Positions 6,001 through 9,000 of a DNA stretch of 64,000 nucleotides are shown here, one piece after another (within the stretch, counting starts at the first letter, position 1; each line of letters begins with the position of its first letter). The stretch comes from Escherichia coli. GTDB lineage: Bacteria > Pseudomonadota > Gammaproteobacteria > Enterobacterales > Enterobacteriaceae. The stretch lies in NCBI RefSeq assembly GCF_017348835.2, contig NZ_CP071375.1. The stretch is one strand, 5' to 3'. Position numbers: made by a program.

Positions 6001-9000
6001 AATAAGCAATTTCTCCTCATAGTCGTCTTCGCTATCGCCATCAGGCACATCGTTTTTACTTCTCCTCAGATACGATATGTAAAAATCGCGCCAGGCATCC
6101 AGATCCAGTTGCCCTCGCTTATTCGATATCGGGGCACCCGGCAATTTCTGCAATCTGCGAAGCTGGCGATCGGTCAGACTTAAATGCCTGGCAACTTCAG
6201 TCTGCGTAGCCACTCCTCACCTCGCAAAAACTCTCACCTCACAATCACAACAAAACCGGTCATGTCCGGTTTACATGTCTGTTTTTTGTTCATGTCCGGT
6301 TCACAGAAGACCTGTTTTTATATTTTTCATATAGTTAACTTGAAGAGAAACCGGACATGGATCCCGGAAAATTTTCATAAATAGCGAAAACCCGCGAGGT
6401 CGCCGCCCCGTAACCTGTCGGATCGCCGGAAAGGACCCACGAAAATGATAATAATTATCATCTACATGAGGTTTATCACGACATGTGTGTACGCCATCAA
6501 ACCACGAGAAATAATCAATTATTACGCAGGTATCGTATTAATTGATCTGCATCAAATTAGCGTAAAAGCAACTTCAGATAATACAAATCAGCAACACTGA
6601 ATACGGGGCAACATTATGTCATCAAAGAACAGAACCCGCAGAACAACAACCCGCAACATCCGATTTCCAAACCAGATAATTGAACAAATTAACATCGCTC
6701 TTGACCTGAAAGGTTCAGGTAATTTTTCAGCGTGGGTTATTGAAGCCTGCAGAAGAAGATTAATTAATGAAAAATATTCTCAATTTGTACCCAACAAAGA
6801 CAAACACGACCAGAGCACCTGTTCAGACAGGTTTACTTAAACGACTTATATATGACACAAAAAGCGACCACTAAAGTCGCTTTTTCTTATGGTAACAGGC
6901 AATAACTCTCTCAGATATTTTTTAGCATTTTTTTGACCGCGCGTTTCCGGACGTATTCTGTTCTCCTGTCCCTTTATATCGTCGGAATACCCGCCGCTCT
7001 TCAAATCCCATTCCCAACTCAGAATGTAGTCTGTTGACCGCTTGTTTTATTTCGGTCAGGTTCACCGGTGAAACCGGAGTCCGGCGCGCCTTACGCAAAC
7101 ACTCTGCTCGTTTCTGTGCCGCCACTTTTCTTTTCTGGTCATCACTTAGCTGTACCATCACTTTTGCCCATCGTTCAGCTGCTCTCCGGTACAGTCCTTT
7201 TTTCTCCAGACATTCTGCCACGTGATCATGTAGCATAAGTGACCTCCGATTATCTACAGACTGCCATCCTGAATTTACCTTCCCTTAATGAAATAACAAT
7301 AAAAAACAAACCACGCAAAAACAATAAAATAACACACAAAAAAAACTAAATAATAAACAAAAATAATCACCTTATTTTATTATTTTTTGAGGGGGCAATT
7401 ACTGAACAAAAAACGCTGACTATATACTCAAAACCAAACAACTATTCTGCCAATCAGGTATCATGGCAACACACGGAATTACCGTGTTTTTGCCTTCTCT
7501 GCCCATACAATACGGGCATATACTTCATACTCTATTGTAATATTTCTATCCATGCGCCCCACTCCATTTACCTGTAAATAATATTCAAAATATTTATCAC
7601 AGAAATCGTTTTTGGCCATGAACTGAGCACACTATAAAGTCCGGAACTGACTCTTTGTTAAATTACCTTAACGTTACCAGTAACACCTTCATAACAAAAC
7701 ATCACGGTATACACTGGGTACGGATATATTCCTGTGCTCCTTCCAGTTGCTTCTGCATTGCCATCAGCCGTTCTCTGAGGATGAAATAATCCCGTTCAGC
7801 GGCTTCTGCCAGTCGGGGACCGGTTGCATTATCCACGCCGGAGGTGATGGGGGCTTTACGCAAGGAGCCTGGACAGTTGGCGTTGATGCGCAGGCGCTTA
7901 CGACCAGCGGCAACATCAGCACGCAGAGTTTCATTTTCAGCTCTCGCATCGGCTAATTCCCTCGAGTATCTGGCATCAAGTGCAGCGACATCACGCTGGC
8001 GTACCTGCATATCAGTAATTGTCGCGTTCGCCAGCTCCAGCTCACTGGCTTTTTTATCGCGCTGCTCTTTGTAGATGATGGCGTGATCACGGTAATGATT
8101 CAGCCCCAGACTAAGCGCACCACAGGCCACCAGCAGGACAATGATAACCACGCACAGAACACGGTTCATATCACCACCAACGGATTGCCCAGACCAGAAC
8201 AGCAATGGCCACAATACGAATGGCAAAAGCTGCCGCTCTTGTTAAATCCAGACTGGCTGGCGTCTCCACTTCAATGCCTTTCATAATGGACAACCTCAGA
8301 AAGAATCTTTTATACTTCCTCACAGGGAAAGTACCTCCCTACCCATAATTTCTCCCTTGCCTTACTCAAGGTCAGAAAACACAAAACCCCGCTTGCTGCC
8401 AACAAACGGGGTTTTTACTTTTATTCACTTAGGTTTTACCAGTTTTCAGGATTTCGTGTTATCCACCCGCGTTGGCCAACGTCATTTTTCAGGAAAATAT
8501 TCTGCTATCTGTCGATGTCCCAGCACGCCAGCGCGCTCTCCTGGTCACGCCGTGAGACCTGACCGTAGCAATTATTTGAACGGATACGGCAGTCTCTGCC
8601 ACCGTCCTTAATCCACCAGCGAATCGCCTCACAGGCACCTTTTCGATCGCCTGCATTAATTCGTTTATAAAACGTCGACGGGAAGCACTTACCGGGGCCA
8701 ATGTTGTACGGACAGAATGACGCGATCCCCGCTTTCTGGGGTTCGGTCAGCGGCACCCGGATGTTTTTCTCCACCCATGCCAGCGCCTTGTCACGTTCGA
8801 TGGCATTAACCCGGTCGCATTTTTCCTTTGACAGCTTCATGCCAGGAATAACAGGCTTACCATCCACCAGAATGGCACCACGGCAGATGGTCCAGATCCC
8901 CGCACCATCACGGTATGCCGTGGTGTGGTTACCTTCCTTTTCATCCAGAAACTGGTCGAGGATTTCAGGCGCAGAAGCACCTGCACCAATCAGCGCCAGA

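What the first reader, a model, noticed from the sequence alone, without database searches (positions are those of the whole stretch)
8170..8504. Unusually long spacer with a strong hairpin between endolysin and Rz
About 335 bp separates the endolysin stop from the Rz start, whereas these genes are normally adjacent. The spacer contains a GC-rich hairpin (about 8383..8416, AAAACCCCG...CGGGGTTTT) and a possible 37-codon hydrophobic ORF ending 2 nt before the Rz ATG.
Basis: seen in the sequence. Interest (0 to 1): 0.2.

Follow-up and report, generated by a model that had tools for sequence, protein, structure and literature searches.

The report
Small membrane-peptide gene with antisense RNA
The "spacer" between the phage endolysin and Rz genes is a compact conserved module: a small membrane-peptide gene, an opposing antisense RNA whose start site has been mapped experimentally, and a hairpin terminator shared by both, resembling a type I toxin-antitoxin pair built into the lysis operon of E. 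coli O157-type prophages.

Summary
In detail: 335 bp (8170..8504) separate the endolysin stop from the Rz ATG. A 15-bp hairpin lies at 8383..8415, and a hydrophobic ORF stops 1 nt before Rz. It is not a spacer.

- **Gene.** The ORF (annotated ECs_1094, 37 aa; probably 50 aa from GTG 8323) is a real gene. dN/dS is 0.04-0.08 with dS>1. It matches PHROG 4493/1115 (unknown function) and travels with Rz behind unrelated endolysins.
- **Hairpin.** It always lies directly upstream of this gene and shows compensatory changes. A-tract and U-tract flank it, so it looks like a bidirectional terminator.
- **Antisense RNA.** A promoter-like motif inside the first codons (TGGACA-18-TATACT, + strand 8287..8316) predicted an antisense start at 8323±1. 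Published Cappable-seq data for an identical EDL933 copy report a TSS at window 8324 in all eight conditions. No sense TSS is reported for the small gene or Rz.

Best reading: a roughly 100-nt cis-antisense RNA plus the terminator keep a membrane peptide, translationally abutting Rz, silent until Q-antiterminated late transcription.

Toxicity, the RNA's 3' end and the peptide's role in lysis are inferred, not shown.

In this endolysin clade R and Rz are never adjacent, and three small TM-peptide families occupy the slot.

The parts
8505..9038 (-). SAR-type endolysin (upstream neighbour; not part of the module)
   Evidence: PF00959 E 8e-24, phrog_7. Annotated as lysozyme WP_001003118.1 / ECs_1096.
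8427..8504 (-). About 80-nt 3' flank of the endolysin gene, shared by all R-Rz interval classes (it belongs to the endolysin module). No function assigned.
   Evidence: Phage BLAST hits cover query positions 1-85/94 regardless of what follows. The same flank precedes both hairpin A and the unrelated hairpin B.
8383..8415 (.). Hairpin 1: bidirectional intrinsic-terminator-like stem-loop. The sense-strand A-tract AAAAGUAAAAA is at 8426..8416 and the U-tract at 8382..8370. On the + strand the A-tract reads as the U-tail UUUUUACUUUUAUU.
   Evidence: Terminator scan. dG -22.1, z -4.35. Covariation across 18 variants: 94% of cells paired, 4 pairs with compensatory double changes, score 0.192 vs 0.090 in shuffles (0/500). 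It always lies directly 5' of the small gene whatever the upstream gene is.
8355..8371 (.). Hairpin 2: CCUUG-AGUAAGG-CAAGG. Its 3' arm runs into the first Shine-Dalgarno, AAGGGAG (8358..8352).
   Evidence: Present in folds of both strands. 69/70 cells are paired across 14 units, with CCUAU/AUAGG and UGACU/AGUCA as compensated versions. The segments were chosen by eye, so the statistic is optimistic.
8320..8346 (-). 8-codon upstream ORF (ATG 8346, MGREVLSL, TGA 8322..8320). Its stop overlaps the GTG start (GUGA). It spans a small stem that sequesters the second Shine-Dalgarno, AGGGAGG (8340..8334). It is part of a 25-nt insertion relative to the 60-aa homologs.
   Evidence: Sequence reading. 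Conserved as 8 codons M-x-R-E-V-x-S-L in L127/L156/L163/L142. Absent from the long-form relatives, where AAGGGAGAAC-ATG starts the gene directly. Translation is not shown.
8171..8323 (-). Small membrane-peptide gene, long form (50 aa from GTG 8323): MRKYKRFFLRLSIMKGIEVETPASLDLTRAAAFAIRIVAIAVLVWAIRWW. The annotated short form (37 aa, ECs_1094 / WP_000675931.1) starts at ATG 8284 with its own GAGG (8296..8293).
   Evidence: phrog_4493 E 1.4e-24 over profile positions 1-54/56 for the 50-aa form. dN/dS 0.04-0.08 with dS>1 against copies about 80% identical in nucleotides; non-aligned frames give 0.6-8.9 and the codon-aligned antisense frame 0.11-0.21. Family alignment. Hydrophobic segment at residues 31-47, KD 2.51; N-terminal 13 residues carry net +5.
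8287..8316 (+). Antisense promoter, -35 TGGACA, 18 nt, -10 TATACT, embedded in codons 3-13 of the small gene.
   Evidence: It is the only promoter-like site in 7600..9200 (10/12 matches). A motif at the same position occurs in 9 of 10 hairpin-preceded units with different hexamers, against a 3.0% background at ORF starts.
8324..8424 (+). Cis-antisense RNA of about 100 nt. The 5' end (A at 8324) is experimentally mapped. The 3' end at the hairpin-1 U-tail is inferred. It is complementary to both Shine-Dalgarno sequences, the upstream ORF and the 5' UTR of the small gene, up to the base before its GTG.
   Evidence: Cappable-seq u-asTSS at EDL933 1272098 (+) for gene RS06270 in all 8 conditions (PMC10469882 Table S6). 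The EDL933 copy is identical to the window over 8153..9821 and 1272098 maps to 8324. It folds into three stem-loops, dG -26.6, z -3.27.
7702..8169 (-). Rz i-spanin (downstream neighbour). Its ATG is 1 nt after the small gene's TGA, and the small gene's last codons, UGG-UGG-UGA, form Rz's Shine-Dalgarno-like GGUGGUGA. Rz1 is embedded at 7764..7949.
   Evidence: PF03245 E 2e-46 and PF06085 E 4e-19. The junction TGGTGGTGAyATG is conserved in E. coli-type copies.

Best explanation
The 335-bp interval is a self-contained module of three overlapping parts inserted between R and Rz.

(a) On the lysis strand there is a gene for a small peptide with a C-terminal hydrophobic helix (50 aa from GTG 8323, and/or 37 aa from ATG 8284). 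Its stop codon abuts the Rz start.

(b) On the opposite strand there is a constitutive promoter inside the peptide's first codons. It starts an RNA at 8324 that runs antisense over the peptide's ribosome-binding sites and 5' UTR.

(c) Hairpin 8383..8415 is a two-way intrinsic terminator. On the + strand it would end the antisense RNA at about 100 nt. On the lysis strand it would stop any RNA polymerase arriving from the endolysin side that is not Q-modified.

Inferred logic: in the lysogen the peptide (and Rz translation coupled to it) is doubly locked, by the terminator and by the antisense RNA. After induction, Q-antiterminated late transcription reads through the hairpin, sense mRNA outruns the antisense RNA, and the peptide is made together with holin, endolysin and spanins.

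The layout is that of a type I toxin-antitoxin pair (hok/sok- or ldr/rdl-like), but the 'toxin' has no promoter of its own.

Shown: the gene is real and under selection. The hairpins are conserved structures. The antisense TSS exists, and no sense TSS was reported for the small gene or Rz.

Inferred: the RNA's 3' end, repression by pairing, toxicity or membrane activity of the peptide, and a role in lysis.
For: - Coding: dN/dS is 0.04-0.08 with saturated synonymous sites. The ORF matches phrog_4493/1115. 62 homolog clusters show conservative TM substitutions, and 31 representatives were found in the exhaustive search.
- Linkage: the gene keeps its hairpin and its abutment to Rz behind unrelated endolysins (Peptidase_M15_4, GH108), Ant and other genes.
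- Distant members: they sit after capsid or tail genes, or inside another lysis cassette, and keep an upstream hairpin of the same design.
- Structures: hairpin 1 covariation; hairpin 2 covariation.
- Antisense promoter: predicted from sequence and found at the same codons in 9/10 hairpin-preceded units. It is absent from the 2 units without their own hairpin. Background is 3%.
- Experimental TSS: at window 8324 in 8/8 conditions, within 1 nt of the prediction. That data set holds 19,975 TSS genome-wide, about one per 555 nt per strand.
- No sense promoter: none predicted in any member, and no gene-associated TSS for the small gene or Rz in the same study's table.
- RNA fold: the antisense RNA folds into three stem-loops, z -3.27.
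- Precedent: hokW-sokW in Sakai prophage Sp5 is a small membrane toxin with an antisense RNA that aids phage release (PMC8621323).
Against: - No direct evidence that the peptide is translated, toxic or membrane-active.
- The 3' end and length of the antisense RNA are not mapped; Term-seq tables were not available.
- Antisense TSS are very common in the Cappable-seq data set, so one TSS alone does not prove function.
- The promoter-like motif could partly be a by-product of AT-rich Lys/Tyr/Phe codons. The depression of synonymous change over those codons is only a trend (p 0.09-0.18).
- No Hfq-CLASH peak is reported at the locus.
- The antisense RNA does not cover the internal ATG (8284) or its GAGG, so the short form would escape direct occlusion.
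- On the + strand the window's hairpin is weaker (-14 kcal/mol), and a weak + strand signal (XECs106) has been reported beyond it.
- Several copies are frameshifted (L027, L193, L190, L152, L199), so the gene is dispensable in decaying prophages.
- The TSS tables were stored truncated, so absence of a sense TSS rests on the part that is held.
Confidence: 0.6

Rival explanations
1. This is an ordinary late gene plus an ordinary terminator. The small peptide is an accessory lysis or membrane protein expressed with Rz. The hairpin is only a partial terminator or 3'-end stabiliser for the holin-endolysin message. The antisense TSS is pervasive transcription with no regulatory role.
For: The gene and hairpin are conserved. 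Non-canonical antisense TSS are abundant in the same data set. No Hfq binding is reported at the locus. Codon-level evidence for promoter constraint is not significant.
Against: The hairpin travels with the small gene, not with the upstream gene. The A-tract that gives a U-tail on the antisense strand is conserved even in distant members. The promoter-like motif recurs with different sequences at the same codons, and only in hairpin-preceded units. The TSS is present in all 8 conditions at the predicted base.
Confidence: 0.2
2. The antisense RNA is mainly a trans-acting prophage sRNA, like AgvB/AsxR, Pas, HnrS or StxS, that regulates host or other prophage genes. Its overlap with the small gene is incidental.
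For: Lambdoid prophages of EHEC/EPEC carry many sRNAs at conserved late-region sites. The RNA has a terminator hairpin with a U-tail and two exposed loops.
Against: It is not among the Hfq-bound EcOnc candidates I could read: the full-text search of the supplement found no coordinates in this interval, and only part of Table S2 was read. It is fully complementary to the adjacent gene's ribosome-binding region. It co-varies in position with each different small gene (families A and B and distant units) rather than keeping a conserved seed.
Confidence: 0.1
3. It is a moron-type lysogenic-conversion gene. The peptide would be made in the lysogen, for example for superinfection exclusion at the inner membrane as with HK97 gp15 (comparison from my own knowledge), and the hairpin would insulate it.
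For: It is inserted between genes that are adjacent in other phages. Distant members sit at other late-operon junctions, one next to a Cor-like lipoprotein. The family-B-like peptide of L221 matches phrog_35629, which PHROGs files under the moron category.
Against: No sense promoter is predicted in any member, and no sense TSS is reported in 8 lysogen conditions. The terminator is upstream, not downstream. The stop is fused to the Rz start, which implies co-expression with late lysis genes. There are no PADLOC hits.
Confidence: 0.07
4. It is a non-functional mosaic junction: leftover DNA from recombination between lysis modules, with a chance ORF and hairpin.
For: The R-Rz junction is a mosaic hot-spot with many length classes. 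Some copies are frameshifted.
Against: Strong purifying selection, structural covariation, a mapped TSS, and full-length presence in 673 of 5426 complete E. coli genomes.
Confidence: 0.02

Closest known systems
hok/sok-type type I toxin-antitoxin loci, including hokW-sokW of Sakai prophage Sp5 (PMC8621323)
   Same: A small hydrophobic inner-membrane peptide. A short cis-antisense RNA whose promoter lies in the 5' part of the peptide's reading frame or leader and which covers the upstream translation-initiation region. A short upstream reading frame coupled to the main ORF (mok-like: here the 8-codon uORF overlapping GTG by GUGA). Prophage location. hokW-sokW assists phage-mediated lysis and release.
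   Different: No sequence similarity to Hok/Gef (no Pfam hit). No promoter of its own for the peptide mRNA. It is embedded in the lysis operon between R and Rz, with a terminator immediately upstream and its stop fused to the Rz start. Toxicity and RNA-mediated repression are untested.
ldr/rdl, ibs/sib and zorO/orzO type I loci of E. coli (PMC2887945, PMC3919570)
   Same: Peptides of about 19-35 aa with one hydrophobic helix. An antitoxin RNA complementary to the toxin's 5' UTR. Structured leaders that hide the Shine-Dalgarno. sib and symR antisense starts are detected by the same Cappable-seq study that detects this one.
   Different: Those are free-standing chromosomal loci with their own promoters and are often tandemly duplicated. 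This module is a cassette in phage late operons and depends on read-through transcription. No homology was detected: Rfam gave no hit to any antitoxin RNA family at E<=1.
Phage P2 lysA, the gene between endolysin K and the Rz-like lysB that modulates lysis timing (from my own knowledge; not checked here)
   Same: A membrane-protein gene occupying the slot between the endolysin and the i-spanin in a lysis cassette, accessory rather than essential.
   Different: LysA is larger with several TM segments. No homology was tested or expected, and no antisense RNA or upstream terminator is known to me for it.
Morons of lambdoid phages (Juhala et al. 2000, as cited in PMC4104026)
   Same: An extra gene with an intrinsic terminator, inserted between two genes that are adjacent in related phages. 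It is mobile between different late-operon junctions.
   Different: A classical moron has its own sense promoter upstream and its terminator downstream, and is expressed in the lysogen. Here the terminator is upstream, no sense promoter exists, and the only active promoter points the other way.
Prophage sRNAs of EHEC/EPEC late regions (AgvB/AsxR anti-sRNAs, Pas sRNAs, HnrS, StxS)
   Same: Short RNAs with intrinsic terminators at conserved positions in lambdoid late regions, some of them antisense to the late operon.
   Different: Those map upstream of the holin (anti-sRNAs, Pas), at tR' (StxS) or downstream of Rz (HnrS). None maps between R and Rz. Most are Hfq-bound trans-acting RNAs. HnrS is absent from this window.

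Membership tests
Intrinsic (Rho-independent) terminator | G+C-rich stem-loop immediately followed by a U-tract | tested here: met
   15-bp stem plus UUUUGUGUUUUCU on the lysis strand. On the + strand, a 9-bp basal stem with a 3-bp upper stem across two mismatches, plus UUUUUACUUUUAUU.
Intrinsic (Rho-independent) terminator | Structure maintained in evolution (compensatory changes) | tested here: met
   94% of cells paired, 4 pairs with double changes, covariation 0.192 vs 0.090 (0/500 shuffles); sliding the register collapses pairing.
Intrinsic (Rho-independent) terminator | Transcripts actually end there | not testable with these tools
   Term-seq data for Sakai exist, but their tables are not held.
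Type I toxin-antitoxin system | Small (<60 aa) hydrophobic or membrane peptide ORF that is a genuine gene | tested here: met
   50/37-aa ORF; hydrophobic segment 31-47 (KD 2.51); dN/dS 0.04-0.08.
Type I toxin-antitoxin system | Antisense RNA gene with its own promoter, complementary to the toxin mRNA | tested here: met
   Promoter TGGACA-18-TATACT. TSS mapped at 8324 in 8/8 conditions. Complementarity to the 5' UTR and Shine-Dalgarno follows from the cis arrangement. RNA length is inferred.
Type I toxin-antitoxin system | Toxin mRNA made from its own promoter | tested here: not met
   No sigma70-like site within 130 nt upstream in 15 family members. No gene TSS for RS06270 or Rz in the held part of the Cappable-seq gene-TSS table, supplementary file 6.
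Type I toxin-antitoxin system | Peptide is toxic when over-expressed and the RNA neutralises it | not testable with these tools
   Needs expression experiments.
Hok/Gef family (PF01848) and other curated toxin families | Sequence match to the family profile | tested here: not met
   No Pfam, NCBIfam or PADLOC hit at E<=1.
PHROG 4493 / 1115 / 3246 (phage proteins of unknown function) | Significant match to the family HMM | tested here: met
   The 50-aa form hits phrog_4493 at E 1.4e-24 and phrog_1115 at 2e-11. The 60-aa relative hits phrog_1115 at 1.4e-42.
Holin/antiholin with dual-start motif | Two in-frame starts giving isoforms that differ by N-terminal positive charge | tested here: inconclusive
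   GTG 8323 and ATG 8284 each have a Shine-Dalgarno. The extension carries net +5. The internal Met is conserved family-wide, and some copies have only the short form. Use of both starts is not shown.
Holin/antiholin with dual-start motif | Hydrophilic, highly charged C-terminal tail; match to holin families | tested here: not met
   The peptide ends ...AIRWW. No holin Pfam or PHROG match.
Moron (promoter-gene-terminator cassette) | Inserted between genes adjacent in related phages | tested here: met
   R and Rz overlap in Qin, DLP12 and Sp3.
Moron (promoter-gene-terminator cassette) | Own sense promoter upstream and terminator downstream | tested here: not met
   No sense promoter or TSS. The terminator is upstream, and the gene's stop abuts Rz.

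The most novel reading that the evidence does not exclude
The module may be the founding example of a previously unrecognised class of phage cassettes. Each would be built as a bidirectional terminator, a structured leader, a small membrane peptide, and an antisense-RNA promoter inside the peptide's first codons. At least two peptide families (PHROG 1115/4493 and 6632) would share this design. The cassettes would move between late-operon junctions, sometimes in tandem arrays, and would act as antitermination-gated, antisense-guarded lysis effectors or timers. The long and short isoforms might play opposing, holin/antiholin-like roles. In Stx phages such a timer would influence when toxin and phage are released.
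Probability: 0.25. Interest if true: 0.75.

Novelty: new variant of a known kind. Interest (0 to 1): 0.55.

Why it matters
The module, or its close relatives, occupies the endolysin-Rz junction of lambdoid and Stx prophages. 2036 of 5426 complete E. coli genomes match part of the interval and 673 carry it in full. Yet its gene is labelled 'hypothetical', its PHROG families have no function, and no paper I could search connects the gene, the hairpin and the antisense start.

If the peptide is a guarded membrane-active lysis factor, the textbook holin-endolysin-spanin cassette of these phages has an extra regulated component. That component could affect lysis timing, and hence phage burst and Shiga-toxin release. 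It would also add a type I-toxin-like design that relies on antitermination instead of a toxin promoter.

The hypothesis is directly testable with a synonymous promoter mutation and with inducible phages that carry the module.

Tried and rejected
- **Rfam.** A scan of 7000..10500 at E<=1 gave only a sub-threshold rimP-leader hit that is just the terminator. No known RNA family fits.
- **Curated protein libraries.** Pfam, NCBIfam and PADLOC gave nothing for the three peptide families.
- **SAR-endolysin partner (releasin/antiholin-like).** Rejected as the main idea, because the gene also follows non-SAR endolysins (M15 peptidase, GH108).
- **C-terminal RWW conserved only as the Rz ribosome-binding site.** Rejected, because distant members not followed by Rz keep RWW.
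- **Known EHEC sRNAs at this spot.** Pas and anti-sRNAs lie upstream of the holin. EcOnc10-12 looked promising but lie downstream of Rz and are now described as HnrS, and they are absent from the window.
- **A replicate TSS at a diverged copy.** Not possible: the stored table is truncated near 1.5 Mb, and the only other cassette I examined within that range (Sp3) has no module.
- **Term-seq 3' ends.** Not available.
- **Ribosome-profiling supplement (PMC5597208).** It lists only a weak + strand candidate (XECs106) beyond the hairpin and nothing on ECs1094.
- **Synonymous-site depression over the promoter codons.** Only a non-significant trend.
- **MAFFT alignment for hairpin 2.** It mis-gapped the compensated variants, so the pairs were counted on ungapped segments.
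- **An error of my own.** I first equated the window with Sakai Sp4. The gene order shows the window is a colinear copy, whereas the Sp4/CP-933M block is inverted.
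Full report
**Observation.** The lysis cassette lies on the minus strand.
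- The S21-type holin is at 9726..9932.
- The SAR-type endolysin is at 8505..9038.
- Rz is at 7702..8169, with Rz1 embedded at 7764..7949.
- The interval 8170..8504 is exactly 335 bp.
- It contains a perfect 15-bp hairpin (8415..8383 in the lysis orientation; dG -22.1 kcal/mol, z -4.35, 0/200 shuffles) followed by UUUUGUGUUUUCU.
- A hydrophobic ORF (8171..8284, 37 codons) has its TGA one base before the Rz ATG.

**Is the long interval unusual?** Relative to K-12 Qin and DLP12 and to Sakai Sp3, yes: R and Rz overlap by 4 nt there. Relative to its own clade, no.
- I fetched 80 viral contigs with an endolysin at least 94% identical. In the 77 where Rz could be located, the R-to-Rz interval is never about 0. 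It falls into classes of about 298, 335, 426-438, 487, 642, about 993 and 1197 nt.
- All classes share the first roughly 85 nt after the endolysin stop.
- Then comes one of two unrelated terminator-like hairpins. Hairpin A is AAAACCCCG...CGGGGTTTT. Hairpin B is GGCACCGTAATGGTGCC followed by a T-rich tract, and it occurs in the Ant-containing classes.
- After the hairpin come combinations of three families of small single-TM peptide genes. I call them A (PHROG 1115/4493/3246), B (PHROG 6632) and C (PHROG 4906). They occur with or without an antirepressor gene.
- The last gene always abuts or overlaps the Rz start.
- All 77 interpretable loci carry at least one of these families.
- None has a Pfam, NCBIfam or PADLOC model, and all PHROGs are 'unknown function'.

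**The ORF is a real gene.**
- RefSeq annotates it as a hypothetical protein (WP_000675931.1; ECs_1094 in Sakai).
- Against copies about 80% identical in nucleotides, dN/dS in its frame is 0.04-0.08 with dS>1. The non-aligned frames give 0.6-8.9. The codon-aligned antisense frame gives 0.11-0.21, an expected artefact that still exceeds the ORF frame.
- The real product is probably longer than annotated. A GTG at 8323 lies 10 nt after AGGGAGG and gives 50 aa. This form matches phrog_4493 end to end (E 1.4e-24). It also aligns over its whole length with 57-61-aa homologs: MxKYKRxxLRLxMK[NG]G.E..AP...A.AFAI[KR]...TM...[KR](WW|S).
- The internal Met with its own GAGG is conserved family-wide, and in some contexts only the short form can be made. 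Two isoforms are therefore possible, but this is unproven.
- The N-terminal 13 residues carry net charge +5. Residues 31-47 form the hydrophobic segment.

**What the gene is linked to.**
- The same gene follows entirely different endolysins (Peptidase_M15_4, GH108), an Ant-like gene and other genes. In each case it keeps hairpin A directly upstream, and in E. coli-type copies the junction TGGTGGTGAyATG with Rz downstream. The hairpin therefore belongs to the small gene, not to the endolysin.
- An exhaustive profile search found only 31 cluster representatives, so the family is narrow. Its distant members, which still end in RWW, are informative.
- One distant member lies in a lysis cassette placed after a capsid gene, in the order hairpin-A-hairpin-A'-holin-hairpin-X-B-endolysin.
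- Other distant members lie between a capsid gene and a Mu gp36-like gene, upstream of a portal-like gene, or after a tape-measure gene and a Cor-like lipoprotein.
- Each distant copy has, 35-80 nt upstream of its start, a hairpin of the same design: an A-tract, an (A/G)CCCC stem, then a U-tract.
- Usually a second 5-bp stem with a 7-nt loop is present whose 3' arm runs into the Shine-Dalgarno.
- RWW is thus a feature of the protein, and the unit 'hairpin + small gene' behaves as a mobile cassette.

**The structures.**
- Hairpin 1: across 18 distinct variants, 94% of cells pair and four pairs show compensatory double changes. The covariation score is 0.192 against 0.090 for shuffles (0/500), and sliding the register destroys pairing.
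- Both the 5' A-tract and the 3' U-tract are conserved. In most variants the two strands fold about equally well. The element therefore looks like a bidirectional terminator.
- Hairpin 2 (window 8371..8355, CCUUG-N7-CAAGG) pairs in 69/70 cells across 14 units. CCUAU/AUAGG and UGACU/AGUCA are compensated forms. I chose those segments by eye, so this figure is optimistic.

**The antisense strand.**
- The only sigma70-like site in 7600..9200 is on the + strand: TGGACA-18-TATACT at 8287..8316. That is inside codons 3-13 of the small gene and points at the hairpin.
- No sense promoter is detectable upstream of any of 15 family members.
- A promoter-like motif with its -10 over codons 2-4 recurs in 9 of 10 hairpin-preceded units of families A and B and one further small ORF. 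The hexamers and spacers differ (TATACT, TAAACT, TATGAT, TATAAT, TAAAAT, TAATAT).
- The motif is absent from the two units that lack their own hairpin. The background at ORF starts is 3.0%.
- From this I predicted a start at 8323±1.
- The Cappable-seq study of EDL933 (PMC10469882, Table S6) lists, for gene RS06270 (this ORF), an upstream-antisense TSS at 1272098 (+). It is present in exponential and stationary phase in LB, M9, acid and salt.
- The EDL933 copy is identical to the window over 8153..9821, and 1272098 corresponds to the A at window 8324, 8 nt past the -10.
- With 19,975 TSS genome-wide, a hit within 1 nt of a predicted base has a chance probability of about 0.5%.
- The same study's gene-TSS table has no entry for the small gene or for Rz. 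It has only two single-condition starts for the endolysin. The stored tables are truncated.
- An RNA from 8324 to the hairpin's U-tail (about 8424) would be about 100 nt. It folds into three stem-loops (z -3.27). It is complementary to both Shine-Dalgarno sequences, the 8-codon upstream ORF and the 5' UTR, up to the base before the GTG.

**Mechanism (inferred).**
- In the lysogen, polymerases arriving from upstream stop at hairpin 1. Any sense RNA that leaks through is paired by the constitutive antisense RNA.
- After induction, Q-modified polymerase ignores the hairpin, sense RNA exceeds antisense, and the peptide is made with the lysis proteins.
- Because the peptide's last codons (UGG UGG UGA) form Rz's Shine-Dalgarno-like sequence and its stop abuts the Rz ATG, Rz translation is probably coupled to it.
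- An unrelated hairpin precedes Ant, another product dangerous to a lysogen, in the sister classes. This fits the idea of cargo that brings its own Q-bypassable insulator, but that is interpretation.
- The peptide's function is unknown. Its position, the coupling and the double lock make a membrane-active accessory lysis factor or timer the most likely role.

**Comparison with what is known.**
- The layout is closest to hok/sok-type type I toxin-antitoxin loci. hokW-sokW of Sakai Sp5 is a precedent for such a pair assisting phage release.
- Membership fails on one defining feature, because there is no toxin promoter. It also fails on homology, and toxicity is untested. I therefore say 'works like', not 'is a'.
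- It is not a classical moron: there is no sense promoter and the terminator is upstream.
- It is not one of the described EHEC prophage sRNAs. The anti-sRNAs and Pas RNAs lie upstream of the holin, and HnrS lies downstream of Rz.

**Caveats.**
- The 3' end of the RNA, repression by pairing, translation and toxicity of the peptide, and any effect on lysis are not shown.
- Antisense TSS are common in that data set.
- AT-rich Lys/Tyr/Phe codons favour -10-like hexamers. The reduced synonymous change over those codons is not significant (p 0.09-0.18).
- No Hfq peak is reported at the locus.
- A weak + strand signal beyond the hairpin (XECs106) has been reported.
- Several prophage copies are frameshifted.

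**Verdict.** It is a conserved three-part module, not a spacer. It is a new variant of a known kind, namely a small membrane peptide controlled by a cis-antisense RNA (type I-TA-like). I put confidence at about 0.6 in the architecture and logic, and lower for the peptide's role in lysis.

Noticed in passing
window 10270..11580 (approx.); further copies with orfA starting at 43815 (+) and 57479 (-): An IS629/IS1203 element sits between the SASA-family esterase gene (11693..13543, -) and the holin, i.e. inside the late operon upstream of the lysis genes and in the opposite orientation. The window holds three IS629 copies in all.
   Followed up: partly
Sakai NC_002695.2 1182130..1189826 (L220) and EDL933 NZ_CP008957.1 1269515..1277120 (L228): In prophage Sp4/CP-933M the block pchA-Rz-small gene-endolysin-holin is inverted relative to Q, the esterase and the terminase genes, and lies between IS629 and ISEc8 elements. 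That copy is therefore cut off from pR'. In the window the same block is colinear with the late genes. The antisense TSS was mapped in the inverted copy.
   Followed up: partly
window 9156..9470 (+): A 104-aa ORF (phrog_1853, no Pfam) lies on the opposite strand between holin and endolysin; a shorter 273-nt version is annotated as a hypothetical protein in O157 genomes. In EDL933 it has a TSS in all 8 conditions at 1272853 (window about 9079), so it is expressed in the lysogen from inside the lysis cassette.
   Followed up: partly
window about 8450..8555 (+): Hücker et al. 2017 list a candidate small gene, XECs106 (Sakai 1184893..1184994, +), with weak RNA-seq and ribosome-profiling signal. 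It is antisense to the endolysin 3' end, just beyond the hairpin on the + strand. This may reflect read-through of the antisense RNA. The coordinates appear shifted by about 4 nt relative to the ORF ending at window 8555 (listed from its TTG at 8472).
   Followed up: no
window 7702..8226 (-): Sakai annotates Rz (ECs_1092) from an upstream TTG as a 174-aa protein that overlaps the small gene. Homologs and PGAP support the ATG at 8169 (155 aa).
   Followed up: partly
L222 1424..2685; L221 242..737: Metagenomic contigs (57% G+C) carry tandem arrays of hairpin-plus-small-TM-gene units. In L222 the array is interleaved with a holin (phrog_920) and ends at an endolysin, placed directly after the major capsid gene. 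Near-identical hairpins repeat at 1424, 1658 and 2071.
   Followed up: partly
L226 (Sakai Sp10) 6320..6368; L227 (Sp12) about 3240..3288: The high-signal Hfq-bound sRNA candidates EcOnc10-12 (now called HnrS in a 2025 preprint) lie just downstream of Rz on the strand antisense to the late operon, in the Ant-type cassettes. The window has no copy.
   Followed up: yes
L007/L008 about 2105..2135 and Ant-containing classes: In cassettes with the antirepressor Ant between R and Rz, an unrelated terminator-like hairpin (GGCACCGTAATGGTGCC then UUUGUCAUUUCU) occupies the same position relative to the endolysin stop. I did not test whether it too has an antisense start.
   Followed up: no
L117 (IMG/VR contig 2636416163_000009): One family-A gene is fused in frame to a 170-aa C-terminal extension resembling a tail-fibre-assembly-like sequence. 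This is probably a recombination or assembly artefact.
   Followed up: no
window 7250..7420: A very A+T-rich, A-tract-rich stretch lies between the PerC-family gene (6922..7236, -) and the region downstream of Rz. No ORF or RNA family was assigned.
   Followed up: no
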